Virus record (IMG/VR): IMGVR_UViG_3300002144_000695
Length of the DNA: 64,000 bases
Strand: one strand, 5' to 3'
Source of the DNA: a virus
The notes beneath the pieces were generated by a model. It ran no database searches. It was not told where the DNA came from and saw only the letters and a list, made by a program, of their open reading frames with translations. Shown here piece after piece: positions 3,108-34,900 of this stretch. Position 1 is the first letter of the stretch, and each line of letters begins with the position of its first letter. The position numbers were made by a program, and so were the translations under genes.

Positions 3108-3410
3108 ATGAAAAACTTACTAGCAGAAAACATGAGAAGATTTGCAACCAAGAATCTCACTGAACAACTAGATGGTGATGCTAATAACAATGGATACCTG
3201 GATGATACCGAACAAACTGCCGCAACAAACGCAGCAACAAAAATGCATGCAATTACAATGGATCAACTAGCACAACTTGCAAAAATAAGAACCGAACTTA
3301 TCAAAAACTACAATGAAAAACAAGTTGTTAACTACACAACTGTTAGAGATATTGATAATCTCATTGAAGAACTCATACGAGAATCTAGCTTGTACGAATC
3401 AAACAGATAA
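3108..3410 (+). CDS. hypothetical protein with LAENMxRF leader
   Basis: MKNLLAENMRRFATKNLTEQ; late motif and AAGGA upstream. Confidence 0.75.
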   Translation: MKNLLAENMRRFATKNLTEQLDGDANNNGYLDDTEQTAATNAATKMHAITMDQLAQLAKIRTELIKNYNEKQVVNYTTVRDIDNLIEELIRESSLYESNR

Positions 3411-3427
3411 ACAAGGTACATGTACAT

Positions 3428-3796
3428 ATGATACGATTAATTGACTTAATAAGCACGCAACGTGTACATGCGCACAAGATTAGATGCGCATTAAACGAAG
3501 GAGCCAACGCGCCAGCCGTACCCGCTGCGTCTATCCAATCACAGGCAATTAGTCTAATAGGCAGCGACAGTGACTTGGTAGCCACTAATTATATATCTTG
3601 GTTAGAAGACAATCTAGAAGAGTTGGAAGCCGAAGGCGAGTTAACTTCCCGGCAACGCTTTGATACCGTGCTTAAAGCTCGATTTGCTTTAATGGATAGT
3701 GAGGCTGATGATATTGTAGCATACATAATGCGTCAACATGGGGCGTCTATGCATCCCGACGTCGAGTTATTAACTTTTATTCGCAAATTTATGTGA
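3428..3796 (+). CDS. hypothetical protein (MIRL-type N-terminus)
   Basis: 122-aa ORF, co-oriented. Confidence 0.7.
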   Translation: MIRLIDLISTQRVHAHKIRCALNEGANAPAVPAASIQSQAISLIGSDSDLVATNYISWLEDNLEELEAEGELTSRQRFDTVLKARFALMDSEADDIVAYIMRQHGASMHPDVELLTFIRKFM

Positions 3797-3865
3797 TTTA
3801 TGTTTTTAAACCTAGGTTTTGAAGTATAATGATATTTATTTATAAATTACGTAATAAGACAGACC

Positions 3866-4465
3866 ATGATAAAACTAAAATCAATTTTAAACGAGGCTTA
3901 TGCGTGGGAACGTGAAGCGGGTAAACCTTTGCCTACCTTGGCTGACACAACAGCAGCATACGCAGCCAAAATAGCAGAACAAAGCGCTATGCAACCAATC
4001 TCTAATCCAATGGCCAGCAAGCTAGACCCACAAGACGTGCAAGAATCAATGCATGACTTTGATGATGAGAAATTTTCTGATGCCATGAGGCATGCCATGA
4101 TTGTGAGTGGTTCAAATCCTGATCGTGATGATTCGCAACGAGATGAAGTGTTTGATATCATCATGACATACACCAAAGATCCTGATACGGCTGAGGCTGC
4201 TTATGCGGCTTGGGAATCTGGAGCGGATATGTCACCTGAATTGGAAGCCAATGTAACACGTGATCCTCGATGGAAGTATGTACGTAGCCCACAACGTGAA
4301 GCAGCTCGTCCCGACTTTCTAGATCTAGATGGGGATGGCGATGAACAAGAGTCAATGAAATCGGCTGCAGCAAGCAAGGCCAGCCAATCAGAATCATTTA
4401 ATCGTCGATTGATGGGTAACCTCAAGGGGTCTGAATTCATTTTGTCTGAAACATTTCGCAAATAA
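3866..4465 (+). CDS. acidic hypothetical protein with MIKLKSILNE leader; EF-hand-like DLDGDGD motif
   Basis: Late motif at 3832; leader ends in LNE. Confidence 0.75.
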   Translation: MIKLKSILNEAYAWEREAGKPLPTLADTTAAYAAKIAEQSAMQPISNPMASKLDPQDVQESMHDFDDEKFSDAMRHAMIVSGSNPDRDDSQRDEVFDIIMTYTKDPDTAEAAYAAWESGADMSPELEANVTRDPRWKYVRSPQREAARPDFLDLDGDGDEQESMKSAAASKASQSESFNRRLMGNLKGSEFILSETFRK

Positions 4466-4507
4466 ACAACATTTAACGTCGTCTGCTACCTTAGGCGGTT
4501 TAGTTGA

Positions 4508-4538
4508 AGGCTTGGGGTTTCGGCCTCAAGCTTTTTTT
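4508..4538 (+). terminator. intrinsic terminator
   Basis: GCTTGGGGT-TTCG-GCCTCAAGC plus 7 T. Confidence 0.85.
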
Positions 4539-4676
4539 ATGTACGCGCAGGCCGATGAGTTGTAAACGAAGACGTGCCTACCGTACTAGCGTACTATGAT
4601 GTAATAATACTAGGACTTTCTTTTTCGGACATATTTATTAGTATAAGTTATCAATTTTAAATGTGAGATACACACA

Positions 4677-4820
4677 ATGGCAGTAAAAAAGGCAGGAAAC
4701 ACTATTTCTAAATTAACTAAACCCAAAGTAAAACGACCAGGCGTACATGCTAAGACTAAAATTAGTAGAAGCAAGAATGCAACGAATTATACTAAATCAT
4801 ATACAAGTCAGGGACGATGA
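4677..4820 (+). CDS. small very basic protein (47 aa, not in track)
   Basis: MAVKKAGNTISKLTKPKVKRPGVHAKTKISRSKNATNYTKSYTSQGR; late motif at 4631; stop overlaps the next ATG (ATGA). Confidence 0.7.
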   Translation: MAVKKAGNTISKLTKPKVKRPGVHAKTKISRSKNATNYTKSYTSQGR

Positions 4821-6196
4821 TTAAATTAACATCTATATTAAAACAAGTAATTACTGAGCAACAATCGGATAAAAAAATTCGAGTGTTGTTTCTTGGCGAT
4901 TCACAAACGGCAGCTAATTGGAGTTATGCTCGTTTATTATTACAAACAAAACAAATTGTAGGAAATATAGTAGCTAGAAATGGTGCGTCAACAGCCGCAG
5001 TATTAAAAATGTTACAAGATAATATATCTAACAAATATGATGTTGTTTCAATTATGGCTGGTGGCAATGATGGTGCATCTAAGTCACCAAACAATGCCAT
5101 CAAAAATTTTGAAGCCATGTTTAAATTGGTTAGAACAACTGGAGCTAAATTAGTTGTTATAACGAATCCAACTAAAGACTTTGTTAATACTAACGATAAA
5201 TATTATAGAAAAAGTGGGTATCCAGCTAATGATAAAATTTCAGATTGGTTACAACTAAATACGTCAGCTGACGTTGTTATTGATACTGGGGACTTTTCTG
5301 AATTAGATTTCACAAAAGATCATGTACATTTAGATTCAGATGCTCATAAAAAAATTGCTAGTCAGTGGAAACGTCAAGTATTAGAGTTAGTTGATATAAA
5401 TTCAACGAAAGAAATTAAACCAGAAGATTCTGTATTATTACAAATGGGTGATTCGGGTGCTGATGTTATTAAAATGCAAAATGCGTTAGTTAACTTAGGA
5501 TATTCAGTTGGGAAAGAGGGCGTCGATGGTAAATTTGGGCCTCATACTAAAAGCGGCTTAATTAATTTCCAACATGACACTACACAAGATCCAAACGGAA
5601 AATTAGATACAATAACAAAAAATATTTTATTTAAAAAAGCTGGAGAAATTGGAACTAGTTCATCTGCCGGCGAATCAAATACAGACACATCATTATCATC
5701 AATACTCAGCTTAGGCGCAATTTCTGGAGCTAACTATTCTGATCCAGTTATAAAACAATCTGCAGCATTGTTAGCACAATTTGAAGGATATCGATCACAA
5801 CCATATTGGGATGTTAACAATTGGCGTATTGGCTTTGGTAGTAGTACTATAACTGATGCATCAGGTAATATTGAACAACTATCATCTAATAGATTAGATA
5901 AGCCTGATAACACTATTACTACTGCTGATGGTATACGTGATTTATCTCGAAGACTTAACGATGAATTTATTCCAAAAGTAATGAAATACGCTGATGGTTT
6001 AAATAACGGAACAATCTCAGCATTGGTTTCGGTTGCATATAACTATGGAAGCTTACCTAAAAGTGTTATTAGAGCCATGGCTACTGCAGATATTAGTACA
6101 ATTGCATTATCAGTATTAAAATTACAATCAAATAACGGCGGCCAGAATGCAACACGCAGAAAAAAAGAAGCTGCGTATATATTAAATAGTAAATAA
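4817..6196 (+). CDS. SGNH/GDSL esterase + peptidoglycan-binding domain + GH24-like lysozyme fusion
   Basis: GDSQT, GGND and DHVH SGNH blocks; LLQMGDSGADV..Q..L..LGY...VDGKFG..T PG_binding_1 pattern; FEGYRSQPYWDVNNWRIGFG lysozyme motif. Confidence 0.8.
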   Translation: MIKLTSILKQVITEQQSDKKIRVLFLGDSQTAANWSYARLLLQTKQIVGNIVARNGASTAAVLKMLQDNISNKYDVVSIMAGGNDGASKSPNNAIKNFEAMFKLVRTTGAKLVVITNPTKDFVNTNDKYYRKSGYPANDKISDWLQLNTSADVVIDTGDFSELDFTKDHVHLDSDAHKKIASQWKRQVLELVDINSTKEIKPEDSVLLQMGDSGADVIKMQNALVNLGYSVGKEGVDGKFGPHTKSGLINFQHDTTQDPNGKLDTITKNILFKKAGEIGTSSSAGESNTDTSLSSILSLGAISGANYSDPVIKQSAALLAQFEGYRSQPYWDVNNWRIGFGSSTITDASGNIEQLSSNRLDKPDNTITTADGIRDLSRRLNDEFIPKVMKYADGLNNGTISALVSVAYNYGSLPKSVIRAMATADISTIALSVLKLQSNNGGQNATRRKKEAAYILNSK

Positions 6197-6204
6197 AGGT
6201 AAAA

Positions 6205-6579
6205 ATGTTTGAAAAACTAATATCAACTCTAATAGCATCACGTGACCAAGCTCACATTTTCCATTGGCAAACAACAGGTGTAGGATCATTCTCTGCACAT
6301 AAAGCATTAGGTAAATATTATGATGCAATTCCAGACCTAGTAGATGCGTTAGTTGAAGCATATCAAGGAAAACATGGTATTGTTAAAGGATATACACCAG
6401 CTGATAAATTTGACGAATACAATCAATCATCAGTAGTTAAATATTTTAAAGGATTAGCAACATATGTTGATCGAGTATATGATAAATTAGATCCTAAAGA
6501 TACAAATATTATTAATCAAGTAGATACAATTAAAGATCTATTGTATACAACAATTTATAAATTAGAAAATCTCCAATAA
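6205..6579 (+). CDS. ferritin/Dps-like four-helix protein (DUF5856-like)
   Basis: QAHIFHWQT...AHKALGKYYD..PDLVDALVEAYQG pattern. Confidence 0.7.
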   Translation: MFEKLISTLIASRDQAHIFHWQTTGVGSFSAHKALGKYYDAIPDLVDALVEAYQGKHGIVKGYTPADKFDEYNQSSVVKYFKGLATYVDRVYDKLDPKDTNIINQVDTIKDLLYTTIYKLENLQ

Positions 6580-7309: not shown

Positions 7310-7346
7310 TATTTATTAATATATTTATAAACAAATAAAGGTTAAT

Positions 7347-8353: not shown

Positions 8354-8359
8354 ATTCAA

Positions 8360-9871: not shown

Positions 9872-9877
9872 TAAAAC

Positions 9878-10892: not shown

Positions 10893-11474
10893 ATGGCAAA
10901 AAAAATAATATCAGAAGCCATACAAAAAAAGTTTGATAAACCGCAGTTCCAAATAGGGGTAGCGGTTTTCTTTTCTTGGCTCGGACAAAAACAATACGGA
11001 CATGTTACAAATTTTAAGAAAACTAATTGGGGTATTTCATATACAGTCACTACGGCTGTGGGACGCAATTACCCGTGCGGTATATGTATTTCGAATGAAA
11101 CAACCCCATACAAAACCGGACTCATATTTTATGAAGGTACGAAAGCGTTTAAGCAAGAAGACCTTGAGCGACGAATTAACAGTGAGCGAACAAGACCAGG
11201 CACCTCCACACTTCGACCGCTTATCATTACCCCAGGAGATAAGCCCAAGCCTAAGCCAGATATCATCGAGTCAAATGGAGCAGATACTTCAAGTACTAGT
11301 GCAAAAAACACAACGGGCCGATCGAAGCGATCTAGCACACAATTGGCTGCTCGGACTAGCTCTAAGGGAAATGACATCAGCAATAGAGCAACAAGCAAAA
11401 AATCAAAACTAGAACAAGCATTTGAAAAACAACGATCGTTTTTAGATTTTACAAAACCTTTGCAAAAAGATTAA
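10893..11474 (+). CDS. hypothetical protein, beta-rich N-terminus and basic Ser/Thr/Lys-rich tail
   Basis: 193-aa ORF with clean start context. Confidence 0.7.
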   Translation: MAKKIISEAIQKKFDKPQFQIGVAVFFSWLGQKQYGHVTNFKKTNWGISYTVTTAVGRNYPCGICISNETTPYKTGLIFYEGTKAFKQEDLERRINSERTRPGTSTLRPLIITPGDKPKPKPDIIESNGADTSSTSAKNTTGRSKRSSTQLAARTSSKGNDISNRATSKKSKLEQAFEKQRSFLDFTKPLQKD

Positions 11475-11531: not shown

Positions 11532-12077
11532 ATGAAAAAGTTATTATTAGCAACAAGTTTATTCGTTAGTGGTTTAGTATTTAGTCAAACTAAAATATTA
11601 ACATCAACACAAATAAAACGAGCTGCGGATATCGTAGCATCTGATATTGATTTTAAGTCAATTGAATCAGAATTAATTGTTTTAATTAATAAATATAGAT
11701 TATCGTTGAATTTGGATACATTAGTATTTGATTCAAATGTTCAAAAAGCTGCAAAGTTTCAAGTTGATTATAATATTTCTATTAATACATTGACACATAG
11801 TAACTTAGGCTCTATGAATGGCGTATTAGATAGAGTTGAAAAATTTACTCTTACTAGATCGAGAACGGCAGGAGAAGTGTTGGCTAATATGTCACCATTA
11901 TTTTCATCAGTGTATGATCAAACGATTGCTGAATTTATTTTTGCAATGTGGAAAAAAAGCCCTGGGCATAATACAATTTTAATATATCCCGGAATGAAAT
12001 CGATCGGCGTGTCTGTCGGCCGGGAAAATATTAAATCAGGCGCAATTTATGCAGGTGCTGTTTTAAATAGTTTATAG
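11532..12077 (+). CDS. secreted CAP/SCP-domain protein
   Basis: Signal peptide MKKLLLATSLFVSGLVFS|Q; LINKYR, LTH, GEVLA and WKKSPGHN CAP motifs. Confidence 0.8.
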   Translation: MKKLLLATSLFVSGLVFSQTKILTSTQIKRAADIVASDIDFKSIESELIVLINKYRLSLNLDTLVFDSNVQKAAKFQVDYNISINTLTHSNLGSMNGVLDRVEKFTLTRSRTAGEVLANMSPLFSSVYDQTIAEFIFAMWKKSPGHNTILIYPGMKSIGVSVGRENIKSGAIYAGAVLNSL

Positions 12078-12078
12078 T

Positions 12079-12112
12079 AAAAATGGGTAACAACTTAATG
12101 CTACCCATTTTA
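12079..12112. terminator. bidirectional terminator
   Basis: AAAATGGGTA...TACCCATTTT between convergent genes. Confidence 0.75.
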
Positions 12113-12113
12113 A

Positions 12114-13364
12114 TTATATTATACTAAAATCTTCCCATTCCATACATTTCATTGCAGTTGGTCTAGCACTAATTCCTTTTTGTACTGATGGCATAACTTT
12201 CTTAAGATTTATCCACGGCTGCTTCACTGGAAATTTAATTGTTCCTGGTTTTTTATATGCGGTTATTAACATATTATATCCTTTAGATACTATTTCATCC
12301 GGAAGTTCCGGCAATGCGGTTGAATATGTTACATCAGCCGTACATGTTACAACTAAAAATTTAAACTGATCATATGCATCTTTGGAGGCTAAAGTCGCTC
12401 CGAATGAATCACGTTTCGATTCATCATTGTTAACTGCAATGCCATCTGTTGATAAATTATATCCTTTAGGTGGATTCGGACCACTAGTTCCATCTTTAGA
12501 TTGATTAAGTCCACCTTTTAGTGTAATTACATTTGCTGGTACAGTGATACCTAATGATGTTAATTGGCTAACAATTGCATCTCTAACAGCTGAGCCACGT
12601 TTTTGCGAAAGTTGAGCCCATGTATCTTTAGCTGCAACGCCGGTGTTTCTAAATCTAGATGCGCTAGCTGCAATTGTTAAGTCTGTAATAGTAATTTTAG
12701 CATCTGAACCTTGTACAACAGTTAGTGTTTGTTTTGCATCTGATATTAATTGATCAATTGCTTGTTGAATCACCGGTGTAATTGCACTTTGATTGTCAAT
12801 GAATACATCGTTCCCGGAAACATTGATACCTAATGTTATAGGAGGTAATGGATCTTCACCCTGCATCACAATTTTTTCTCTCGTAATTTTGCCTTTTCCT
12901 AATTTAACTAAATACTCATCATCTTGTTTACGTTTCTTTAATGCAGTGATATATGTATTAAATTGCGTAAGGAAAGCAATTCTAGATTCTTGTGTTAGTA
13001 ATCTAAACCATATATCAACATTTGTATCGGTTGTTCTAGACGCGCCACCTCGTTTAGCTAAAGATTGTATGAATTGATCATATCGTTCTTGTCCGAATTT
13101 ATTAACTAATTCTTTTCTCCAAACAGATGCTTGATCAGTTATTAAATCATCAGTTTCAACACGTGTTGTATTTGCTGACTTATTAATTTGTTTAACGGTT
13201 GCTGGGGTTATTTTTAATATAGCTGCTTCAGCATCAGTAATACCATATATTTGCTTTTCGCCACCCACTTGCTGAGTAACTTGTTCTTGCAATTTATCTT
13301 TTAATGCCTCAGATAAATTTTTAGTACCAAATCTAAGCATATTTTCTGCTAATATGTTTTTCAT
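12114..13364 (-). CDS. LAENMxRF-leader protein with OmpA-C-like domain
   Basis: MKNILAENMLRFGTKNLSE; ITI.ASAS....W..LSQKRG.AVRD pattern resembles the OmpA-like PG-binding fold. Confidence 0.6.
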   Translation of the reverse strand: MKNILAENMLRFGTKNLSEALKDKLQEQVTQQVGGEKQIYGITDAEAAILKITPATVKQINKSANTTRVETDDLITDQASVWRKELVNKFGQERYDQFIQSLAKRGGASRTTDTNVDIWFRLLTQESRIAFLTQFNTYITALKKRKQDDEYLVKLGKGKITREKIVMQGEDPLPPITLGINVSGNDVFIDNQSAITPVIQQAIDQLISDAKQTLTVVQGSDAKITITDLTIAASASRFRNTGVAAKDTWAQLSQKRGSAVRDAIVSQLTSLGITVPANVITLKGGLNQSKDGTSGPNPPKGYNLSTDGIAVNNDESKRDSFGATLASKDAYDQFKFLVVTCTADVTYSTALPELPDEIVSKGYNMLITAYKKPGTIKFPVKQPWINLKKVMPSVQKGISARPTAMKCMEWEDFSII

Positions 13365-13421
13365 TTGTATTCCTCTATAGTTTCTTTAATATAAATATCA
13401 GACTATATAAAAACCAATTGA

Positions 13422-13456
13422 TTTGGATATATGCAAAATATTTCTTATTATATTAA
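13422..13456 (+). promoter_or_regulatory. host-type promoter, divergent from the late promoter at 13391(-)
   Basis: TTTGGA-N18-TATTATATTAA. Confidence 0.55.
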
Positions 13457-13485
13457 TATAATTAAACAATTAAACAATTAAAGTT

Positions 13486-14031
13486 ATGAAAAAGTTATTA
13501 TTAGTATTAGCAGTTTTATCAGTCAATTGTGCCATTGCGCAAAATATTTTATCGTTTACCCGGTATGAAAATTATATTTTAGATAGACATGGCATTGATT
13601 ATTGCTCTCCACATACACGTAGAATGGTGGAAAGTGGTGATGTTTATAATTGTGAAAAACATATACAAGATGGTATGTTCGAGGCATATAATCTCTTTAC
13701 TAACTGGAATAAAGGGTATTTTAATTCGATACCGGATACTAATAAAGTGATATCAAATGGCGCTATATATATGGCAGGTAAAAAGTCCATTCCGTTTGTA
13801 AAAGCCGCGTTTAATGAAAGCAGAAAAATTTTAGGGATTTATAGTTTACAAGTTAATGATAAGCTATACGGTATTCGAACAATTGAAGTGCTCGAAGTAT
13901 GGAGTAATACTCCCCAATTGAATGTGATAGAAATCATTGTTATGATCGAAGATTTTGAAGACAATTGGGATATATTAATACCAGAAACATACAATTTTCC
14001 AGTTGATTGTAGCATATGTCCAGCCAATTAA
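13486..14031 (+). CDS. secreted hypothetical protein
   Basis: Signal peptide MKKLLLVLAVLSVNCAIA|Q with Gln at +1; several Cys. Confidence 0.75.
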   Translation: MKKLLLVLAVLSVNCAIAQNILSFTRYENYILDRHGIDYCSPHTRRMVESGDVYNCEKHIQDGMFEAYNLFTNWNKGYFNSIPDTNKVISNGAIYMAGKKSIPFVKAAFNESRKILGIYSLQVNDKLYGIRTIEVLEVWSNTPQLNVIEIIVMIEDFEDNWDILIPETYNFPVDCSICPAN

Positions 14032-14047
14032 ATTAAATATAATCAGT

Positions 14048-14084
14048 AAAAAAGGGGGAGCGATCAAGTTCCCCCTTTTTTTTT
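14048..14084. terminator. bidirectional terminator
   Basis: AAAAAA-GGGGGA...TCCCCC-TTTTTTTTT. Confidence 0.85.
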
Positions 14085-14094
14085 ATGCAAATTA

Positions 14095-14703
14095 TTATGC
14101 AAAAAAGTCTTTGGCATTGCCTGTTAAAGCTACACGTATTTTCTCATTTGTGAACTTTGCAATTCTGGCGTCGTAGTTTGGTTTATTTCTATCTGCGGCG
14201 TATATGGTTCTAAGAACTTTCAATGGAATTGCATTGAACATGGCACTAATAGTATTAGCAACAGTAACTTCAGTATCGTTTTCATCTTTCATTGACTGGC
14301 CAATTGTAGCAACAATTTTAAATGAACTAAATTTAGCTGGCGCGCTGCTCCAAACAAAATAGCCAAGAACACTTGGAATTGGTAATGATATCAATCCAAT
14401 CTTATTTGAGCCGAATTCAATTGGTTCAAAACCATAGAATGAACCGTTATATCCAGCTGATAGGCTAAAGTCTTTCGTGGATTCTGATACTAGATAATAA
14501 GATCCTAGTATACCAGTTACAGTAGGCTTGTTCATGTCATGACTCTGTTTAAAATTCACTGATAAGTTCGCTACCTGTGCTTTGGGCAATTTTGATAAAA
14601 TATCAATTTCAGCCTGTTCTGCCAATCTTTGTAATTTTTCTACTTCAGATTCGTTTAAATTTTTAATTCCAAATCTAAGCATATTTTCTGCTAATGTATT
14701 CAT
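14095..14703 (-). CDS. LAENMxRF-leader hypothetical protein
   Basis: MNTLAENMLRFGIKNLNESE; late motif and AAGGA upstream. Confidence 0.75.
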   Translation of the reverse strand: MNTLAENMLRFGIKNLNESEVEKLQRLAEQAEIDILSKLPKAQVANLSVNFKQSHDMNKPTVTGILGSYYLVSESTKDFSLSAGYNGSFYGFEPIEFGSNKIGLISLPIPSVLGYFVWSSAPAKFSSFKIVATIGQSMKDENDTEVTVANTISAMFNAIPLKVLRTIYAADRNKPNYDARIAKFTNEKIRVALTGNAKDFFA

Positions 14704-14749
14704 ATATTCCTTTAAGGTTTCTTTAATAATAAATATAACATCATTAAAA

Positions 14750-15481
14750 TTAACGATATAATGTCCATATAAACTTCTGCCAGTTATAAGTATTTTGTTC
14801 TCTTTTCGCGTTGTCGTTGATACTTAAGTTGGGTTTTGAACTATATCCTGTTTTTGCTAGCCATTCTTGTTTGGTTGGAAAGACTGCTTTAGTTTTAAAT
14901 GTTATTCCTAATTTTCCAGAATTAAATGCTGTTTCATACATTCCGTAAAGTTTATTAACATCTGCATTTAAGCCATATGTACTTCTAGCAGCTGCTTTAA
15001 ATTCGTTATCTAAAGGCAATAAATTTCCAATTGCTTTTGTCCATGTACTTTTTAACGGGGTCGTTGCGGCTCTTGTGCCTTTTGGCGATATGGATTTGAA
15101 TTTTTTCAACCAATCTTGTTTAGCAGATTCAGGAATAATACCATCTAAATCTTTTATTGCTTGTTCTGGGGTTATTTTACCTGATTTAACTTGCTTAAAG
15201 ACTTCTTTCGAAAGTTGTTTGCCTAAGTCGACTATGGCTGCTCCTCGATTGGCATATAAAGCACGAGCTTCATCATCAGTTACTCCAGCTTGTTTTAATT
15301 TCTTTGGATTTCTTAGTATACTAAAAAACGCCTTAGTATTTTTATAGCTACTACCAAAATACTTAATGACTTTTCTAGTTACTTCCCATGCAACACCGCC
15401 AGCAATTAGTTTTCCAACGGTAAATAATGTTAGATATGTTGATATATCTAGCTCATTTAATGATTGTTTTGAATTCTTCAT
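14750..15481 (-). CDS. hypothetical protein, leader ending LNE followed by a hydrophobic segment
   Basis: MKNSKQSLNE|LDISTYLTLFTVGKLIAGGVAW. Confidence 0.75.
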   Translation of the reverse strand: MKNSKQSLNELDISTYLTLFTVGKLIAGGVAWEVTRKVIKYFGSSYKNTKAFFSILRNPKKLKQAGVTDDEARALYANRGAAIVDLGKQLSKEVFKQVKSGKITPEQAIKDLDGIIPESAKQDWLKKFKSISPKGTRAATTPLKSTWTKAIGNLLPLDNEFKAAARSTYGLNADVNKLYGMYETAFNSGKLGITFKTKAVFPTKQEWLAKTGYSSKPNLSINDNAKREQNTYNWQKFIWTLYR

Positions 15482-15491
15482 TTTTTATTTT

Positions 15492-16613
15492 CTATTTTCT
15501 ATTTTTTATTTCTTGATCATACATTTGTTCTAGATTAGCAAATAATTGTTGTTGTATTTGTTCCGGAGTTGCCATTGTTGCTAAATCATATGCATAATCA
15601 TACGCTACGACTCCAGCTACACTAAATGATGCAGATTTTGCAAATGCAAATAACTTTTGTTTTGTTGATTGTTTAATATTTGATGCAATAATTTGTTTTG
15701 CATTTTTAACAATTCCATTTTTTAAGTAAATTGCAATTTGTTGTTTGATAGCTTTATCATTTTTAGCCATTGCTTCTAGAACTTCTAATTCAATTTTTGA
15801 AAATGCTATACCCGTAGACTTTGCACTCGCACCAACGACTTTTCGGCCTAATATTGTCATGCCTTTTTTGCCCAATTGTTTTATTCCTGGGATTTGAGAT
15901 ATTCCTGGTAATATTGAAAATATTGCCTCAAGTCCTGCAGATTTTTGATCTCCCTCATCATAATACATTTTTGCATTAACTAACCCGATGCCGGCACTAG
16001 CAGCCCATCCTATTACGGGAATAAATGCTGTTACAATTTGCGAAGTAATTAGTATAGTATGCCCATTTTCTTTCCACCATGATTCCCAACGATCTGATGC
16101 GCTTAAATTTGACCACCAATTCCATGCAGATCTATATGGCCCTGCCATCAACTTTAGAATGGCTTTTTCTTCACCTCCCGTGGCTGTTCCTAGTTTCCAT
16201 TTTTCATATACTGAATAATTTCCTGATGCTATTAATTTAAAATCTGCCCAAGGCACTATTTTTTTAATAGTCCATTGCCATTGATCTTTTTTAATAAATG
16301 TCAACAATTGACTAGCAATTATTATTCTAGGATTAATATCTAAAAAGCTACGTAAATATTCGCCAATTCCTCGACCTGAAGTTAGTTTTTGTAATTCTTT
16401 ATTAACTTGATTGTATTGACTGATATTTTTAATAGCTTTGATCGCCGGCAGAACTTTTTCTTCATCATCTGAAAGTATGCCTTTTGCATCATATATTTGT
16501 TTAGCAATACGTTTTGCATTGAATGATCCGGTGATTGCATTTGGGTCCGATGCGCCTTGTTTAAATACCGGAATTGGTTTTTGCTCAACTAATAATGTTT
16601 TTAAATGTATCAT
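15492..16613 (-). CDS. leader-bearing protein with annexin-like repeat and predicted membrane hairpin
   Basis: MIHLKTLLVE|Q; AKQIYDAKGILSDDEE..L.AI; hydrophobic VTAFIPVIGWAASAGIGLV and AIFSILPGI segments. Confidence 0.6.
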   Translation of the reverse strand: MIHLKTLLVEQKPIPVFKQGASDPNAITGSFNAKRIAKQIYDAKGILSDDEEKVLPAIKAIKNISQYNQVNKELQKLTSGRGIGEYLRSFLDINPRIIIASQLLTFIKKDQWQWTIKKIVPWADFKLIASGNYSVYEKWKLGTATGGEEKAILKLMAGPYRSAWNWWSNLSASDRWESWWKENGHTILITSQIVTAFIPVIGWAASAGIGLVNAKMYYDEGDQKSAGLEAIFSILPGISQIPGIKQLGKKGMTILGRKVVGASAKSTGIAFSKIELEVLEAMAKNDKAIKQQIAIYLKNGIVKNAKQIIASNIKQSTKQKLFAFAKSASFSVAGVVAYDYAYDLATMATPEQIQQQLFANLEQMYDQEIKNRK

Positions 16614-16649
16614 ATTAATAAATATTACTTTAATAAAAAATAGCTATAC

Positions 16650-16694: not shown

Positions 16695-17723
16695 ATGATA
16701 AGATTTGGTTATGCATGCATCAACACAGAGTTAGGCGCAAAAAATATTCGCACGGGACGATCGTTGATTGATAGAAAATTTCAACAAGGAGGCTTAGCAT
16801 TAGCAGGTGAAATTGCCTTAGCAAACGCAATTGATCTAATAAAAATATTTGAATGGAATGAAGCTAATGGCATCACGCTATTTAGACTTGGATCAGAATT
16901 GTTTCCACGATGGAATCATTATTGTTTAGAAGACCTTCCGCAAATTGATGAAATTGCAAAACATCTTCGTGCTGCAGGCGATTATGCTAAGGCGCACGGA
17001 CATCGCATCACAACACATCCTGGTCCATTTCATATCTTGGGTAGTCCTGAAGCGCGAGTTGTTGATAACAGTTTGGTTAGTTTAGAACGACATGCTGAAT
17101 TGTATGATTTGATGGGTTTTGCTCCTAGCTTCGAAAATAAAATTAATATTCATATCGGCTCAACTTATGGCGATAAGGATGCGACTATTGCTAGATGGTT
17201 AACTAATTGGGATAGACTATCAGACTCAGTTAAAGCTCGTCTCGTAATAGAAAATGATGATAAAGCATCTATGTATTCAGTTCGAGACTTATATGAGCGT
17301 GTACATTCTCAAATTGATATTCCAATTACGTTTGATTATTGGCACCATACTTTTAATACCGGCGATTTATCTGAGGAAGAAGCATTCTTCATGGCTCGTA
17401 GCACGTGGAAGAAGCATGGTGTGACTCAATGTACCCATTACTCAGAATCACGTCGTAGAGAGTATCAAACCATGGTAGAACAAATGTTTGAGCATCATGG
17501 TATCTCTATGGAGGATCTAGAAAATTATCCTACCTTTCACAAACAATACAAAGAATTTACCAAGATCAAAGAACAAGCTCATGCTGATTATATTTTAAAC
17601 TTGCCGAATACATATGGCGTTCATGATTTAGATATTGTGGTTGAAGCAAAGGCTAAAGAACAAGCATTAATGCGTGTAGGAGTTGAATGCACTCAAAATA
17701 GAGCATTGATTTTAGAATCTTAA
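16695..17723 (+). CDS. uvsE: UV damage endonuclease (UvsE/UvdE)
   Basis: RFGYACIN, FRLGSELFP, THPGPF, INIHIG, LVIENDDK, FDYWHH and AHADY motifs. Confidence 0.92.
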   Translation: MIRFGYACINTELGAKNIRTGRSLIDRKFQQGGLALAGEIALANAIDLIKIFEWNEANGITLFRLGSELFPRWNHYCLEDLPQIDEIAKHLRAAGDYAKAHGHRITTHPGPFHILGSPEARVVDNSLVSLERHAELYDLMGFAPSFENKINIHIGSTYGDKDATIARWLTNWDRLSDSVKARLVIENDDKASMYSVRDLYERVHSQIDIPITFDYWHHTFNTGDLSEEEAFFMARSTWKKHGVTQCTHYSESRRREYQTMVEQMFEHHGISMEDLENYPTFHKQYKEFTKIKEQAHADYILNLPNTYGVHDLDIVVEAKAKEQALMRVGVECTQNRALILES

Positions 17724-19924: not shown

Positions 19925-20359
19925 ATGGACAAAACAGATGAATTATTCAAAGGCACCACATTTGCTGACTTAATGTCCGATGTCTATCACAATTCTAAAA
20001 AGAAAGATAGACAAATTAATCAACTTATATCACAGCTACAACCACTTATACGTAATGCATCGGATGCAACAGTTATAGTTCCACTCATTAAAGAATATTT
20101 AGATGTAGCAGTTAAGAATGACGATCATCTCGTTAAACTTACTGCTATTGTTCAACGGTTTATTTCAACTAAACAAACAATTGCAGGTGCTGACGGTTTG
20201 TTAAGTGATGAAGAAAAACAACAATTAATGAAAATTGCTGAAAAAACAATGACTAATGAATTAGAAGACGAGTTAGATCTAATTGATGAAGATGATACTG
20301 TATTGCAAACCCATATTACCGATGTAAAAAATAAATTAGGAAAGGAATTAGGTGCATAA
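19925..20359 (+). CDS. hypothetical protein
   Basis: 144-aa ORF, late motif and AAGGA upstream. Confidence 0.75.
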   Translation: MDKTDELFKGTTFADLMSDVYHNSKKKDRQINQLISQLQPLIRNASDATVIVPLIKEYLDVAVKNDDHLVKLTAIVQRFISTKQTIAGADGLLSDEEKQQLMKIAEKTMTNELEDELDLIDEDDTVLQTHITDVKNKLGKELGA

Positions 20360-21413
20360 TGTCAAATTCGATGTAGCTGAAGTTTTATCTTATGATAATA
20401 CATATCAGCATATTCCGGCGGGGTCAGCCGACTCTAATGTAAATAATTTATTTGCTATCAAAGTTAGATCTTGTAGTACTTACTACAATCATAAGGAATA
20501 TATTGTTAAGCCTAGCAATATTAAATTAAAACAAATACCATTAGTCGGAGAATTTGTTTTAATTTACAAAACATTTAACCAAGAATCTACATCGACAAAG
20601 CCACGAGAACAATGGTATTATCTAGCAACTGTTGATATTCAGTCATCAATCAATGAAAACATGTTGCCGGGTATTTCTAATAATTTAACTCAAACTCAAA
20701 TTGATTTAATTAAGCCGGGGTATACATTCAAACAAAAATCAATATCACCGCTACAACCATATGAAGGCGACTTTTTGTTGGAGGGTCGTTGGAGTAATAG
20801 TATACGTTTTGGTAGTACATTAGATTATATTAATGGAAAATATAGTATTGAACCCATATGGTCGGGCACTTCAATTGGCGATCCTATAATAATATTGTCT
20901 AATGGTCGAATTAATAAACCAAATAAACAATTTGTTAATGAGGATATTGAAAAAGATGCATCGTCAGTTTATTTAACTAGCACGCAAACAATTCCAACAT
21001 TAGCATTAGGCGATAAAAACTCTCCTAATTCATTATCTTGTTTTTTACCAAATGAATCACAATTTGCAAGATCACAATTCATAGGTACCGCAGATCGAGT
21101 TATATTAAAAGCAAAAACAGATGTTGCAATTATTGATTCTCCTCGTGCAATTATATTAAATACTACAGGCGACATAAAATTAGGTAATGATGAAGCAAAT
21201 GAATCTATGGTTCATGGACGTGTATTGTTAAATGTACTGCAAAAAATATTAAATCAACTGAAAGGTCCAATTCAATGTGGCACCATGTTCGGTACATTTA
21301 TCGATCAAGCTAATAGAATTGAGGCTCAACAAGAGTTAAAAAATCTATTAAGTTCAAAATACTTTATACAAAAACATCCATATAAATTAGAATCCGACCA
21401 AGAAAAATTATGA
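20352..21413 (+). CDS. baseplate hub/spike protein (gp5-like, no lysozyme domain)
   Basis: OB-fold-like N-terminus (PLVGEFV), EGD..LEGRWSNSIRFGST, beta-rich C-terminus; position before gp25/gp6. Confidence 0.6.
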   Translation: MHNVKFDVAEVLSYDNTYQHIPAGSADSNVNNLFAIKVRSCSTYYNHKEYIVKPSNIKLKQIPLVGEFVLIYKTFNQESTSTKPREQWYYLATVDIQSSINENMLPGISNNLTQTQIDLIKPGYTFKQKSISPLQPYEGDFLLEGRWSNSIRFGSTLDYINGKYSIEPIWSGTSIGDPIIILSNGRINKPNKQFVNEDIEKDASSVYLTSTQTIPTLALGDKNSPNSLSCFLPNESQFARSQFIGTADRVILKAKTDVAIIDSPRAIILNTTGDIKLGNDEANESMVHGRVLLNVLQKILNQLKGPIQCGTMFGTFIDQANRIEAQQELKNLLSSKYFIQKHPYKLESDQEKL

Positions 21414-30708: not shown

Positions 30709-30757
30709 CGGCAAAATTAACAATATGTATATTTATATTAAATAAGGTTAAAACACT

Positions 30758-31408: not shown

Positions 31409-31419
31409 TAGGCAAAGAA

Positions 31420-32721: not shown

Positions 32722-32738
32722 AATAATACACTGAATTA

Positions 32739-32776
32739 GACCCTGTTATATTTATATTAAATGTAGCAGGGTTTTT
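32739..32776 (+). terminator. terminator-like hairpin whose loop is the late promoter motif
   Basis: GACCCTGTTA-[TATTTATATTAAATG]-TAGCAGGGTT-TTT. Confidence 0.6.
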
Positions 32777-32783
32777 ACTGAAT

Positions 32784-34355
32784 ATGGCAGAATCTAAAAT
32801 AAAAAACGACGAACAATCATATCAAGGCATATATCCATCTGTTTTTAAAAAAATTGATGGCGCCGACGTTATGATTAATCCTTTCCAAGTATTTAAACCT
32901 TGGTCTGTTATTTCTGGTAGCAGTACTAGTAGTGTATTACCACTACAAGCTATTTATTCTGATATTAATTATTTGCCAGCATTGGGGTCTGAATTAACAT
33001 TTAATGATGCTAAAAACATTGATGATAGTTTGCAAACTATATCATATTGGAGTATCAATCATTTATACTATAAATACAAAGAATCACCAGCATTAACATT
33101 CGGCCCGACAGATTTAACTCGTACAAAAAAAGCATTATATTTAACGGCTTCGATACTATCATTTCCACAAAATAAAATTGGAGAAGGAATTAAACCAAAC
33201 TCATTTACATTGAATGGATCTGTTACATTAGCATCTGATCGATATAGCAATTTGTATGATGTTGCATTTGATACTAGTTCAATTGTTAATGATGTAAAAT
33301 GGTATGACGGATTCAATGAATATTTTGATGTTTCGAGATTTACTAGTATAAATTCGGGAGTATCTTTTATATCCGGAGTGCCTAGCACCGACGGGGCTCA
33401 ATTACCTATAGGATATGCTGCTAAGTTTGATGGTGCTGGCTATATTGAATCAACATTGAATGGATTTTATGATCGAGATCATGATTATGCAATTTCATTT
33501 TTTATTTCAGGATCAAATACAGATTTACAAGATCAGTTGATTTTAGCAAAAGCATCTAGTAGTTTATCTACATCATATCCATTTAAAATTGAATTGAGTG
33601 GCAGCAATCAATTGATTTTTACAGCTGCTGGCAGTACTACGTTTAAAACACAGATAACATCATCTACTGCAGTTGCAACTTGGCAACATGTTGTATGTCA
33701 AAAAACAGGTAGTAGTTTAGAATTGTATATTGACGGAGTTTTAGAATCTTCTGTAACGGATACGTTACTAGTTAATACATTATCTCCATTTACAGCATCT
33801 GCTAGGATAGATAATACAAACAATTTGTTTATAGGCGGTTTTAATACCCAAAGCTCAAATTTACAAGGTGTTCTAGATGAAGTTAGAATATTTAATAAGT
33901 CTCTTACCACTAGCAACATAAGTTCTCTTAAGGACCGTAGCGAAGGCGGCACGTTTTTGCAGACAGCAAATGTTGGCAATGTATTTAGCAAACATGGCGT
34001 TGTTGTAATATCATCGCCAGACTATCGATATAATAATATTTTAAATACTCCATTTACATCAAGTTATCGTAGCACAGTAACTATCAATGAATTTAGTGTA
34101 TTAACCAAATTAGATGCTGGCGATTTTAATATGTCGACCAATTTAACATTGACTCGAGATGATGATTCTACATATCTTCCATTTGTAAGTGGTAGTGACT
34201 TTGCGCCATATATTACTACAATTGGATTATATAATGACTCAGGACAATTATTAGCAATTGGAAAATTAGCACAACCAATTAAAAAGCGAAATGATGTAGA
34301 TATGAATTTTTTAATTCGTATTGATTTAGATAAAAATATTTCATTTAAAGGATAA
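32784..34355 (+). CDS. LamG/concanavalin-domain virion protein
   Basis: WQHVVCQK, LYIDG, LDEVRIFNKSL; C-terminal YITTIGLYND. Confidence 0.75.
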   Translation: MAESKIKNDEQSYQGIYPSVFKKIDGADVMINPFQVFKPWSVISGSSTSSVLPLQAIYSDINYLPALGSELTFNDAKNIDDSLQTISYWSINHLYYKYKESPALTFGPTDLTRTKKALYLTASILSFPQNKIGEGIKPNSFTLNGSVTLASDRYSNLYDVAFDTSSIVNDVKWYDGFNEYFDVSRFTSINSGVSFISGVPSTDGAQLPIGYAAKFDGAGYIESTLNGFYDRDHDYAISFFISGSNTDLQDQLILAKASSSLSTSYPFKIELSGSNQLIFTAAGSTTFKTQITSSTAVATWQHVVCQKTGSSLELYIDGVLESSVTDTLLVNTLSPFTASARIDNTNNLFIGGFNTQSSNLQGVLDEVRIFNKSLTTSNISSLKDRSEGGTFLQTANVGNVFSKHGVVVISSPDYRYNNILNTPFTSSYRSTVTINEFSVLTKLDAGDFNMSTNLTLTRDDDSTYLPFVSGSDFAPYITTIGLYNDSGQLLAIGKLAQPIKKRNDVDMNFLIRIDLDKNISFKG

Positions 34356-34357
34356 CA

Positions 34358-34900
34358 ATGATACGATTAAAATCATTATTAGAAATAGTTGACGACGAAT
34401 TGCGAAGATTGCTAGATAAAATAAAAAATAAACAATTTAGATATATTGGATCTGGAGATAATGGGCGTGTATATGAAATTGATGGTGAAGACCGCGTATT
34501 TAAAATTACACAAGAACGCGATGAATTTGAAGTGGCTGAGGTAATTGTTGGGCGCTCAAGCGAATTTACAACATTTATACCAGTTTATTATGTTAATCCA
34601 GAAAAACGTTTATATATAATGGCTAACGCAGAACCAATATCTAGTTCAACTCGAGTTATGGTAGAAAAGTTTATGCAAAGTTTTGCTCAGTATGCTAGAT
34701 CAGAAGGCGGCGAAGTTAGTATATTTGAATTTTTAGATAATGACGGAGCTAGAAATATTGATACGAAACTAGTTAATTTTTTACGCGCGTTACAACAAGA
34801 TGTTCAAAGAACAGGCATAGCTGAATTTGATTTAGATTTAGATTTTAGTTCAAATAACATCATGATGTGGGATAATAAAATGGTGCTAGTTGACTGGTAA
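34358..34900 (+). CDS. minimal protein-kinase-like protein with MIRLKSLLE leader
   Basis: Gly loop IGSGDNG, VFK lysine, DFSSNN catalytic loop, VLVD. Confidence 0.7.
   Translation: MIRLKSLLEIVDDELRRLLDKIKNKQFRYIGSGDNGRVYEIDGEDRVFKITQERDEFEVAEVIVGRSSEFTTFIPVYYVNPEKRLYIMANAEPISSSTRVMVEKFMQSFAQYARSEGGEVSIFEFLDNDGARNIDTKLVNFLRALQQDVQRTGIAEFDLDLDFSSNNIMMWDNKMVLVDW

What the first reader, a model, noticed from the sequence alone, without database searches (positions are those of the whole stretch)
3108..34900. Reusable N-terminal leaders on unrelated cargo proteins: candidate capsid-loaded effector payload
Seen: two leader families sit on otherwise unrelated late proteins. Type A is MI(K/R/H)Lxx(I/L)L..E: 3866 MIKLKSILNE, 4817 MIKLTSILKQVITE, 15492(-) MIHLKTLLVE, 34358 MIRLKSLLE, and loosely 3428. 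Type B is LAENMxRFxxKNLxE: 3108, 12114(-) and 14095(-). Others end similarly: 14750 SLNE, 7532 LIAE, 34929 VLVE, 54393 MITE, 54811 GLTE, and the protease itself LLVE. Established: T4 internal proteins carry a ~10-aa capsid-targeting sequence removed by gp21 after (I/L)-x-E, and this MCP has a fitting LVKE|A site. Inference: these leaders load diverse cargo into the prohead for ejection at infection. The cargo includes an esterase-lysozyme, a kinase, an OmpA-like protein and an annexin/membrane protein, far broader than T4 IPI-III.
Basis: partly seen in the sequence, partly recalled or inferred. Interest (0 to 1): 0.85.

Follow-up and report, generated by a model that had tools for sequence, protein, structure and literature searches.

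The report
Capsid-address leaders on phage cargo proteins
An uncultured T4-like phage of aquatic Bacteroidota puts a short detachable N-terminal tag, ending in the cut site of its head-maturation protease, on many unrelated proteins, most likely to load them into the capsid as T4 does with its internal proteins, but with a longer modular tag and far more varied cargo.

Summary
Leaders MI(K/R/H)LxxLLxE (3866, 4817, 15492-16613(-), 34358; degenerate at 3428) and LAENMxRFxxKNLxE (3108, 12114-13364(-), 14095-14703(-)) occur only at ORF starts. The extra list of "similar endings" is not above chance.

The two types are pieces of one modular leader. Environmental copies read MIKLKNILAE-NMRRFGTKNLxE, and the ENMLRF subtype adds a third segment. 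Every segment ends in L-x-E.

Both types are widespread in IMG/VR: each scan hit its 120-contig limit, and type B cargo forms at least 47 BLAST-unrelated clusters. All 4 complete leader-bearing genomes tested encode a T4 gp21-type (S77) protease.

Indirect support for capsid loading and cleavage:
- The conserved positions 4, 7, 8 and 10 match the functional residues of the T4 capsid-targeting sequence.
- The junction L-x-E is conserved, or replaced by the next one downstream.
- Cargo is specifically depleted of [LI]xE (ratio 0.59), while scaffold-module proteins are enriched.
- About 72% of type B genes have the late-promoter motif upstream, against 15% of neighbouring genes.
- The leader genes sit in hypervariable islands between conserved flanks.

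Packaging, cleavage and ejection remain untested. This is a new variant of a known kind. The scan has noted similar MIKLK-type leaders on other DNA; the LAENM module is new.

The parts
3108..3410 (+). Type B-R leader gene (MKNLLAE|NMRRFATKNLTE|Q). The cargo has a D-x-NNNGY-x-D motif.
   Evidence: The cargo belongs to the largest environmental cargo cluster (24 members). A late-promoter motif lies at 3074-3081.
3428..3796 (+). Degenerate type A leader gene (MIRLIDLIST, no Glu-10; next site LNE|G at residue 24).
   Evidence: There is a weak hit to the PhiKZ gp85 / virion structural protein profile, below cut-off.
3866..4465 (+). Type A leader gene (MIKLKSILNE|A), acidic cargo of unknown function.
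   Evidence: Environmental homologues keep the leader (L221, L230, L244). A promoter motif lies at 3832-3839.
4817..6196 (+). Extended type A leader (MIKLTSILKQVITE|Q) on an SGNH esterase + PG_binding_1 + phage lysozyme protein.
   Evidence: Pfam domains. The only [LI]xE site in its 459 residues is the one at the leader end. No homologue in the syntenic relative G001.
12114..13364 (-). Type B-L three-segment leader (MKNILAE|NMLRFGTKNLSE|ALKDKLQE|Q) on cargo with an OmpA-like peptidoglycan-binding fold.
   Evidence: The E27-Q28 junction is at least 90% conserved across the 27 aligned family sequences (of 33 hits). AF2 plus Foldseek match OmpA C-terminal domains, E 5e-5.
14095..14703 (-). Type B-L three-segment leader (MNTLAE|NMLRFGIKNLNE|SEVEKLQRLAE|Q), cargo unknown.
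   Evidence: All three [LI]xE sites lie in the leader and none in the 173-residue cargo. A promoter motif lies at 14729-14736(-).
14750..15481 (-). Possible leader (MKNSKQSLNE|L) followed by a hydrophobic helix. It lies directly downstream of 15492-16613 on the same strand, with no promoter motif of its own.
   Evidence: Not significant on its own.
15492..16613 (-). Type A leader gene (MIHLKTLLVE|Q). The cargo has Gly-rich hydrophobic segments.
   Evidence: A partial homologue with the leader is in G001 at 38054. A promoter motif lies at 16618-16625(-).
34358..34900 (+). Type A leader (MIRLKSLLE|I) on a 180-residue protein with a protein-kinase-like fold. It is a conserved gene at the end of the baseplate operon.
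   Evidence: 754 homologues, with MIRLK[QS]LL(x)E conserved among the 120 best that were read. AF2 pLDDT 85. Foldseek matches APH, CK2 and Rio kinases, E 5e-4.
53765..54391 (+). Prohead protease of the T4 gp21 family (MEROPS/Pfam S77). Its own N-terminus is MSKLLVE|Y.
   Evidence: PF03420, E 7e-31. 35% identity to T4 gp21, with the GELDHP and SSRG motifs aligned.
55719..56768 (+). Acidic scaffold (gp22 analogue), N-terminus MAKSDLLKE|A. It has 13 [LI]xE sites.
   Evidence: 13 observed, 7.9 expected. T4 gp22 starts MLKEQLIAE|A.
56794..58437 (+). Major capsid protein with a ~58-residue propeptide ending LVKE|A.
   Evidence: 56% identity to the Flavobacterium phage immuto MCP. The block from residue 60 aligns with the mature N-terminal region of T4 gp23.
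52433..55260 (+). Head-module proteins with leader-like N-termini and many [LI]xE sites: 52433, 53281 (MRSLLRE|M), 54393 (..KYILE|MITE|D) and 54811 (..GLTE|E).
   Evidence: 53281: 8 sites against 3.1 expected; 52433: 9 against 3.8. They parallel T4 gp67, gp68 and gp24.
11532..16613 (.). Hypervariable island between conserved flanks (10893-11474 and 16695-17723). It holds two type B genes, one type A gene and two signal-peptide genes.
   Evidence: In G001 the same flanks enclose three type B genes with unrelated cargo; only the leader matches.
2950..2976 (+). Stop-interrupted leader relic, MIRL*SLLE (TAA where the intact leader at 34358 has AAA).

Best explanation
The leaders are capsid-targeting propeptides of the T4 type.

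Proposed mechanism:
1. The leader-bearing genes are transcribed late, from ATATTTAT-type promoters, together with the head genes.
2. The N-terminal amphipathic helix binds the assembling scaffolding core (scaffold 55719-56768 and neighbouring core proteins). The cargo is thereby enclosed when the MCP shell forms.
3. The gp21-family S77 protease (53765-54391) cuts after Glu of every exposed (L/I)-x-E. This removes the leader in one to three ~10-residue pieces, degrades the scaffold and trims the MCP at LVKE|A.
4. Leader and scaffold fragments leave the head. The mature cargo stays with the DNA and is probably expelled through the tail at infection.

The leader is modular:
- Segment 1: M(I)K(LK)x[IL]L-x-E. 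This is 'type A' when it stands alone.
- Segment 2: NMxRFGTKNL-x-E.
- Segment 3: ..K.L..L-x-E-Q, in the ENMLRF subtype.

Shown here: the motif, its modularity, its exclusively N-terminal position, its spread on unrelated cargo, its co-occurrence with S77, the pattern of junction conservation, the [LI]xE depletion in cargo, the link to the late motif, and the hyperplastic loci.

Inferred: binding to the core, cleavage, retention in the capsid and ejection.
For: (1) The phage is T4-type. It has an S77 protease and a gp23-like MCP. Its core proteins start like those of T4: MAKSDLLKE, MSKLLVE and MRSLLRE here, against T4 gp22 MLKEQLIAE, gp21 MNEPQLLIE and gp24 MAKINELLRE.

(2) In the T4 CTS MKTYQEFIAE, residues 4 and 7 direct targeting and residues 8 and 10 direct processing (PMC9026906). 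Type A conserves these same four positions: L4, [IL]7, L8, E10.

(3) PF03420 is found in 4 of 4 complete leader-bearing IMG/VR genomes and in 4 of 10 incomplete ones.

(4) Junction logic. Glu at +2 after KNL is present in 85% of copies although the search pattern did not impose it. In the ENMRRF subtype it is 51 of 51. In the ENMLRF subtype it is 24 of 36, but 34 of 36 carry a further [LIVM]xE site (mostly L-x-E) in the next 20 residues, typically about 10 residues on, against 2 of 51 in ENMRRF. In the 12114 family the E27-Q28 junction is at least 90% conserved, and distant homologues with quite different leaders keep hydrophobic-x-E-Q at the aligned junction.

(5) [LI]xE observed/expected is 0.78 in type B cargo against 1.34 in the other genes of the same loci. 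The ratio is 0.59 (cluster-bootstrap CI 0.44-0.72). For type A the ratio is 0.77 (CI 0.57-1.00). Most control motifs stay between 0.85 and 1.22, with [LI]xD at 0.97; only the related [VM]xE also falls, to 0.73 and 0.90. In the window, 4817 has its single site at the leader end and 14095 has all three in the leader, whereas scaffold-module proteins are enriched.

(6) 71-73% of type B genes have ATATTTAT within 70 nt upstream, against 15-16% of neighbouring genes. In the window that motif precedes portal, terminase, baseplate and tail genes.

(7) Cargo is modular. There are 47 BLAST-unrelated clusters among 100 type B proteins, none with a Pfam, PHROG or NCBIfam hit. Type A sits on ADP-ribosyltransferase (as in T4 Alt), Zeta-like kinases, cell-wall hydrolases, NUDIX, exonuclease, HD and ATP-grasp domains.

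(8) Between the same conserved flanks, the window and G001 hold different cargo behind the same leader. This parallels T-even internal proteins, which are highly diverse apart from a conserved CTS (PMC3012670).

(9) Synonymous codons vary freely, so selection acts on the peptide.

(10) Two cargo proteins target peptidoglycan yet lack any secretion signal.
Against: There is no direct evidence of packaging, cleavage or ejection. No cultured phage has homologues of the two cargo genes searched, 3866 and 34358, and no paper mentions these leaders.

The co-fold of leader, scaffold and protease gave no verdict.

Type A genes from the broad IMG/VR scan show no enrichment of the late motif, although they come from other lineages. 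Their [LI]xE depletion is marginal (CI reaches 1.00; per-cluster p = 0.12).

S77 co-occurrence rests on few complete genomes, and T4-like phages are common among large aquatic contigs.

The number and variety of tagged proteins (13 in G001; kinases, NUDIX, nucleases) is much larger than any documented capsid cargo set.

The ORF at 3428 lacks Glu-10.

An earlier scan case (e1-127136) shows that a shared N-terminal tag can turn out to be linked to a neighbouring enzyme (there a radical-SAM enzyme) rather than to capsid sorting.
Confidence: 0.68

Rival explanations
1. The leader is the recognition tag of some other enzyme or chaperone, in the manner of a RiPP leader. The tagged proteins would be modified, folded or regulated in the cytoplasm and never enter the capsid.
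For: Earlier scan case e1-127136: a shared phage N-terminal tag proved to be linked to a radical-SAM enzyme. The cargo list includes ordinary cytoplasmic enzymes such as NUDIX, HD and ATP-grasp.
Against: There is no conserved neighbour. Leader genes lie at four or more separate places in the window with different neighbours. This reading explains neither the invariant L-x-E junction with its compensation, nor the specific [LI]xE depletion of cargo, nor the likeness to the N-termini of the phage's own core proteins.
Confidence: 0.1
2. The leader is a cleavable inhibitory propeptide or a generic amphipathic helix, for membrane association or oligomerisation. It does not itself direct capsid entry, and the L-x-E ending serves some other protease or none.
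For: The leaders are predicted to be short, low-confidence helices set off from the body. Several cargo proteins are potentially harmful enzymes: lysozyme, Zeta-like kinase, ADP-ribosyltransferase.
Against: The only E-specific protease evident in the window is the prohead protease. In T4 this protease acts inside the prohead (PMC5694885), so cleavage by it would imply capsid residence. The match to the T4 CTS targeting positions 4 and 7 would be unexplained.
Confidence: 0.12
3. The shared N-termini reflect DNA or RNA-level function (translation start optimisation, or recombination handles for cassette exchange), or simple paralogy. They would not be a protein signal.
For: The leader coding DNA is A/T-rich. 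The leader genes lie in recombining islands, and a conserved 5' end could help cassette swapping as a side effect.
Against: Synonymous codons vary freely: Arg uses six codons and Leu uses six. Hydrophobic positions and the terminal Glu are conserved at the peptide level. Cargo includes unrelated Pfam domains, so paralogy is excluded. This reading cannot explain the [LI]xE depletion in cargo.
Confidence: 0.05

Closest known systems
T4 capsid-targeting sequence (CTS) of internal proteins IPI, IPII, IPIII and Alt, removed by prohead protease gp21 (Mullaney & Black 1996; reviews PMC9026906, PMC3012670, PMC5694885)
   Same: Both are N-terminal propeptides of 10-19 residues ending in (L/I)-x-E. Hydrophobic residues sit at positions 4, 7 and 8, and Glu at position 10. 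Both are portable across unrelated cargo. The genome has a gp21-family protease and a gp22-like acidic scaffold. The phage's own core proteins carry similar N-termini. One environmental cargo class is an ADP-ribosyltransferase, as Alt is.
   Different: There is no sequence similarity to MKTYQEFIAE beyond the pattern. The leader is modular, with up to three segments and three cut sites over 27-30 residues. Leader genes per genome are many more: at least 8 in this 64 kb window and 13 in G001. The cargo is mostly dark matter and includes peptidoglycan-directed proteins. The host is Bacteroidota-like. Nothing has been shown biochemically.
Diverse internal proteins of T-even phages that share only a conserved CTS (PMC3012670; PMC9026906 section 3.1)
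   Same: Diverse cargo sits behind one conserved leader. Here, in addition, the same conserved flanks enclose different cargo genes in related genomes.
   Different: There are several islands rather than one locus. Some leader genes (34358) are conserved core genes rather than variable ones.
Processed ejection and inner-body proteins of phiKZ-like giant phages (SPN3US gp53/gp54 share an identical 15-residue N-terminus with several cleavage motifs; PMC5694885)
   Same: Diverged head proteins share an N-terminal propeptide. Multiple protease motifs lie inside the propeptide, which the SPN3US authors suggest would give small fragments that clear the capsid more easily.
   Different: The protease family and site differ (S80 cutting at A/S/G-x-E, against S77 cutting at L/I-x-E). 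There the tag is shared by paralogues, not by dozens of unrelated families.
Earlier notes of this scan on MIKLK-type leaders in other uncultured T4-like phages (e1-3862018, e1-4036318, e1-3018276)
   Same: The type A decapeptide (MIKLKDLLKE and relatives) and the reading given to it are the same.
   Different: New here are the LAENMxRFGTKNLxE module, its fusion to type A, the third segment, the site-compensation test and the cargo-depletion test.

Membership tests
T4-type capsid-targeting propeptide (CTS) | Located at the extreme N-terminus, about 10-19 residues long | tested here: met
   All window copies, and about 95% of more than 260 environmental copies, start the ORF. Lengths are 9-14 residues (type A), 19-22 (type B-R) and 27-30 (type B-L).
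T4-type capsid-targeting propeptide (CTS) | Ends in the gp21 cleavage motif (L/I)-x-E | tested here: met
   Where one site is lost, the next one downstream is kept (34 of 36 against 2 of 51).
T4-type capsid-targeting propeptide (CTS) | Hydrophobic residues at positions 4 and 7 (targeting) and determinants at positions 8 and 10 (processing) | tested here: met
   Type A conserves L4, [IL]7, L8 and E10. The roles of these positions in T4 come from PMC9026906. This is a pattern match only, not a functional test.
T4-type capsid-targeting propeptide (CTS) | The genome encodes a gp21-family protease and a scaffolding core | tested here: met
   PF03420, E 7e-31. 4 of 4 complete leader-bearing genomes have it. 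The acidic scaffold is at 55719-56768.
T4-type capsid-targeting propeptide (CTS) | Portable: the same leader on unrelated mature proteins | tested here: met
   47 unrelated type B cargo clusters. Unrelated Pfam domains sit behind type A.
T4-type capsid-targeting propeptide (CTS) | The tagged protein is physically incorporated into the prohead or virion | not testable with these tools
   No proteome of any leader-bearing phage was found.
T4-type capsid-targeting propeptide (CTS) | The leader is removed by the prohead protease | tested here: inconclusive
   There is only indirect support: specific [LI]xE depletion in cargo and enrichment in scaffold proteins. The co-fold with the protease gave no verdict.
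T4-type capsid-targeting propeptide (CTS) | Sequence homology to the T-even CTS MKTYQEFIAE | tested here: not met
   Only the spacing pattern is shared. It works like a CTS but is not a sequence relative of it.
Sec/Tat/lipoprotein signal peptide | Hydrophobic h-region of about 10-20 residues after a basic n-region | tested here: not met
   The leaders are charged amphipathic helices. True signal peptides in the window look different (11532 and 13486: MKKLLL...).
RiPP-like or enzyme-recognition leader | A dedicated modifying enzyme encoded next to the tagged genes | tested here: not met
   Neighbours differ at each locus, and between the window and G001. No systematic co-occurrence screen was run.

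The most novel reading that the evidence does not exclude
A large clade of aquatic T4-like phages uses a modular, multi-segment 'address code' in which each segment ends in the protease site. The code would load dozens of unrelated, mostly unannotated proteins into the capsid, including peptidoglycan binders and hydrolases, kinases and ADP-ribosyltransferases, for delivery with the DNA. Different lineages attach their own leader to the same cargo. If so, the leader is a sequence key that picks out the injected effector repertoire of uncultured phages directly from metagenomes.
Probability: 0.45. Interest if true: 0.75.

Novelty: new variant of a known kind. Interest (0 to 1): 0.6.

Why it matters
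If the reading is right, a simple sequence motif marks the proteins that a very abundant group of uncultured aquatic phages injects together with its DNA.

That would turn hundreds of dark-matter gene families into candidates for first-minute host takeover, cell-wall passage or anti-defence functions. None of the 47 type B cargo clusters has a Pfam, PHROG or NCBIfam hit.

It would show that the T4 internal-protein strategy is old and widely used, on a much larger scale than in T4 itself.

It would also offer new packaging tags for loading foreign proteins into phage heads. The multi-segment design, in which each ~10-residue piece ends in a cut site, gives a testable model of how long propeptides are cleared from the capsid.

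The [LI]xE depletion test is a general way to ask from sequence alone whether a protein shares a compartment with a site-specific protease.

Tried and rejected
- **Co-fold.** Scaffold, S77 protease and residues 1-40 of the 12114 protein scored 0.00, which is no verdict and counts neither for nor against binding.
- **tblastn of a 24-residue fused leader against cultured phages:** no match; the query was probably too short. An earlier attempt had wrong coordinates.
- **tblastn of the 34358 and 3866 proteins against cultured phages:** no match. No proteomic link could therefore be made.
- **Type B pattern in Flavobacterium phage immuto and phage Mel-JY01:** absent. Only type A occurs there.
- **Literature search** for the leader strings and for Mel-JY01: nothing found.
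- **Whole genome for the window:** not held.
- **Generic 'any N-terminal L/I-x-E' as a marker of cargo:** rejected, because it is at chance level.
- **Basic charge of cargo, as in T4 internal proteins:** only a weak shift for type A (64% against 49% with pI above 8) and none for type B. It was not used as evidence.
- **Late-motif enrichment for type A genes of the broad IMG/VR scan:** none.
- **Annexin reading of 15492-16613:** no family hit.
- **Protein atlas look-up of the 12114 cargo:** only a sub-threshold OmpA lead. The fold search settled the question.
- **Naming the ADP-ribosyltransferase cargo loci:** ten type A proteins were scanned, but the two ART members were not among them.

Full report
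**What the window is.** It is part of a ~160 kb T4-superfamily myophage.
- The major capsid protein (56794-58437) is 56% identical to those of Flavobacterium phage immuto and of phage Mel-JY01, and more distantly related to T4 gp23.
- The gene at 53765-54391 is a Pfam S77 (T4 gp21-type) prohead protease, E 7e-31. It is 35% identical to gp21, with the GELDHP and SSRG motifs aligned.
- An IMG/VR genome with terminal repeats, G001 (159.6 kb, MCP 77% identical), is syntenic with the window.

**Checking the observation.**
- The eight leader-bearing ORFs are real.
- A six-frame scan finds MI[KRH]L..[IL]L four times and LAENM.RF..KNL three times, always at an ORF start and never internally. There is also a stop-interrupted relic at 2950.
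It gave 134 ORF matches, virtually all with the start Met 5-10 residues upstream.
- The pattern MIKLKx[IL]LxE did the same: 120 of 133 matches start an ORF of at least 50 residues with no upstream in-frame Met.
An N-terminal [LI]xE occurs in 23 of 78 genes, against 26% expected from internal windows (p = 0.29). Only the head-module genes in that list are credible, because they mirror T4.

**The two types are one modular leader.**
- In 15 of 100 unique type B proteins the residues before AENM are a complete type A leader (MIKLKNIL-AE...). The L-A-E of 'LAENM' is then the L-x-E of type A.
- G001 carries such a fused copy on the homologue of the window's 3108 gene.
- Type B splits into two subtypes.
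  - ENMRRF: 51 of 51 have Glu at +2 after KNL. Only 2 of 51 have another [LIVM]xE in the next 20 residues.
  - ENMLRF: only 24 of 36 have that Glu. However, 34 of 36 carry a third segment (..K.L..L-x-E-Q/G) with a further site 8-13 residues on.
- Loss of one cut site is therefore compensated by the next.
- In the family of the 12114 protein the E27-Q28 junction is at least 90% conserved. Distant homologues with entirely different N-termini (MKRFILE..EKNRI....ITESDRRSILSMYGIMVEQ..RLTENDLVVIIQKVISEQ) keep hydrophobic-x-E-Q at the aligned junction.
- Synonymous codons vary freely across copies, so selection acts on the peptide.

**Comparison with T4.**
- Read from the T4 record, the core and shell proteins start MLKEQLIAE (gp22), MNEPQLLIE (gp21), MAKINELLRE (gp24) and MEGLIE (gp67).
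- The window's scaffold, protease and neighbouring core protein start MAKSDLLKE, MSKLLVE and MRSLLRE.
- The T4 CTS is MKTYQEFIAE (PMC8442874). Suppressor genetics place targeting at residues 4 and 7 and processing at residues 8 and 10. T4 propeptides are 10-19 residues long (PMC9026906).
- Type A conserves these same four positions: L4, [IL]7, L8, E10. Among the 120 best-scoring of the 754 homologues of 34358 these are nearly invariant.
- T-even internal proteins are already described as 'a highly diverse set ... with only a conserved CTS' (PMC3012670).
- SPN3US paralogues share a propeptide with several cut sites, which its authors suggest would aid clearance from the capsid (PMC5694885).

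**Independent tests of the capsid and protease reading.**
1. *Protease co-occurrence.* PF03420 is present in 4 of 4 leader-bearing IMG/VR genomes that are at least 90% complete, and in 4 of 10 incomplete ones. The 50-60 kb contigs are ~31-36% complete pieces of ~160 kb genomes.
2. *Site depletion in cargo.* If cargo shares the prohead with an (L/I)-x-E protease, it should avoid that motif.
   - [LI]xE observed/expected is 0.78 in type B cargo against 1.34 in the other genes of the same loci. The ratio is 0.59 (cluster-bootstrap 95% CI 0.44-0.72; per-cluster p = 1.6e-5).
   - For type A the ratio is 0.77 (CI 0.57-1.00).
   - Eight of the ten control motifs, including [LI]xD (0.96-0.99), [LI]xK, ExL and [LI]E, stay between 0.89 and 1.22. 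[LI]..E gives 0.91 and 0.85. The related [VM]xE also falls, to 0.73 and 0.90.
3. *Site pattern in the window's own proteins.*
   - The 459-residue esterase-lysozyme has a single [LI]xE, at the leader end.
   - The 14095 protein has all three sites in its leader.
   - The 12114 protein has three of its four sites in its leader.
   - By contrast, the scaffold has 13 sites (7.9 expected), 53281 has 8 (3.1 expected) and 52433 has 9 (3.8 expected).
4. *Timing.* ATATTTAT lies 22-37 nt upstream of portal, terminase, baseplate and tail genes in the window (40 copies against 22.5 expected). It lies within 70 nt upstream of 71-73% of type B genes, against 15-16% of their neighbours. All window leader genes sit in such transcription units.
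5. *Hyperplastic loci.* Between the conserved flanks 10893-11474 and 16695-17723 the window has two type B genes and one type A gene. Between the same flanks G001 has three type B genes with unrelated cargo, and only the leader aligns.

**Cargo.**
- 100 unique type B proteins fall into 47 BLAST-unrelated clusters. None of the 47 representatives hits Pfam, PHROGs or NCBIfam.
- Of 119 type A proteins from IMG/VR, a few hit clearly unrelated families: Zeta-toxin/AAA_33 kinases, ADP-ribosyltransferase exoenzyme (the class of T4 Alt), cell-wall hydrolase, NUDIX, RNase T, HD, ATP-grasp and metallopeptidase.
- In the window:
  - 4817 is SGNH esterase + PG_binding_1 + lysozyme.
  - 12114 has an OmpA-like peptidoglycan-binding fold (AF2 pLDDT 74; Foldseek 4rha, E 5e-5, with consistently OmpA, MotB and PorE hits).
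  - 34358 has a protein-kinase-like fold (pLDDT 85; APH, CK2 and Rio hits, E ~5e-4).
  - The annexin reading of 15492 has no support.
- Two peptidoglycan-directed proteins without any secretion signal would fit delivery from outside through the tail, but that is inference.

**What is not shown.** Nothing here demonstrates packaging, cleavage or ejection.
- The co-fold of leader, scaffold and protease gave no verdict.
- No cultured phage carries homologues of the two cargo genes searched, 3866 and 34358.
- No paper mentions the leaders.
- Support is weaker for type A from other lineages.
- A tag recognised by another enzyme remains possible, as in earlier scan case e1-127136. However, no conserved neighbour exists, and that reading would not explain the junction logic or the site depletion.

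**Verdict.** I put about 0.68 on 'prohead-targeting propeptides cut by the S77 protease' and somewhat less on ejection as effectors.
- The principle is known from T4. The scan has already met MIKLK-type leaders on other DNA (e1-3862018, e1-4036318, e1-3018276).
- New here are the LAENMxRFGTKNLxE module, the multi-segment architecture with site compensation, the leader swapping on one cargo family, and the cargo-depletion evidence.
- I class it as a new variant of a known kind, interest 0.6.

Noticed in passing
window 2950-2976: A stop-interrupted leader, MIRL*SLLE, lies in the non-coding stretch upstream of 3108. It has TAA where the intact leader at 34358 has AAA. It is probably the relic of a lost leader gene at the edge of a hypervariable island.
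   Followed up: partly
window 43879-46500 (residues 399-447 of the 873-residue protein); L153:2312-3232: An environmental type A protein (MIKLKHILTE|AIIGNSIKCDNCGWSW...) aligns, leader included, with an internal stretch KIESLMRE|AVRNGKIYCDNCPWNW of the window's 873-residue protein (59% identity, E 5e-19). That junction looks like an internalised leader plus cut site, which fits the polyprotein idea noted separately (e1-5348817).
   Followed up: partly
P0021, P0025, P0032, P0033 (homologues of window 12114-13364): The same OmpA-like cargo family carries other N-terminal leaders in more distant phages: MKRFILE..EKNRI.., VKRFVITESDRRSILSMYGIMVEQ and ..RLTENDLVVIIQKVISEQ. All end in hydrophobic-x-E-Q at the aligned junction. 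This suggests lineage-specific address labels and further leader families worth a survey.
   Followed up: partly
window 11532-12077 and 13486-14031: Two genes with classical signal peptides (MKKLLL...) each lie convergent to a type B leader gene inside the hypervariable island. G001 has no homologue of either. Their relation to the cargo genes is unknown.
   Followed up: no
window, 40 sites (for example 50520, 52399, 30729, 22279): ATATTTAT is over-represented (40 sites against 22.5 +/- 5 expected). It lies in sense orientation 22-37 nt upstream of structural genes, so it is a likely late promoter element for this phage clade.
   Followed up: partly
window 55280-55525: A ribosomal protein bS21-like gene sits inside the head module between the core proteins and the scaffold. 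Phage Mel-JY01 has one in the same place, annotated RpsU.
   Followed up: no
window 20352-21413: The ORF at the start of the baseplate gene block is only 353 residues long. It was not scanned against any family here, so whether it is the hub or spike protein and whether it lacks a lysozyme domain is untested. If it does, the leader-tagged esterase-lysozyme (4817) could supply a virion-borne cell-wall hydrolase.
   Followed up: no
window 2650-2770: A G/C homopolymer-tract element lies in the otherwise AT-rich intergenic region upstream of the first leader island (seen).
   Followed up: no
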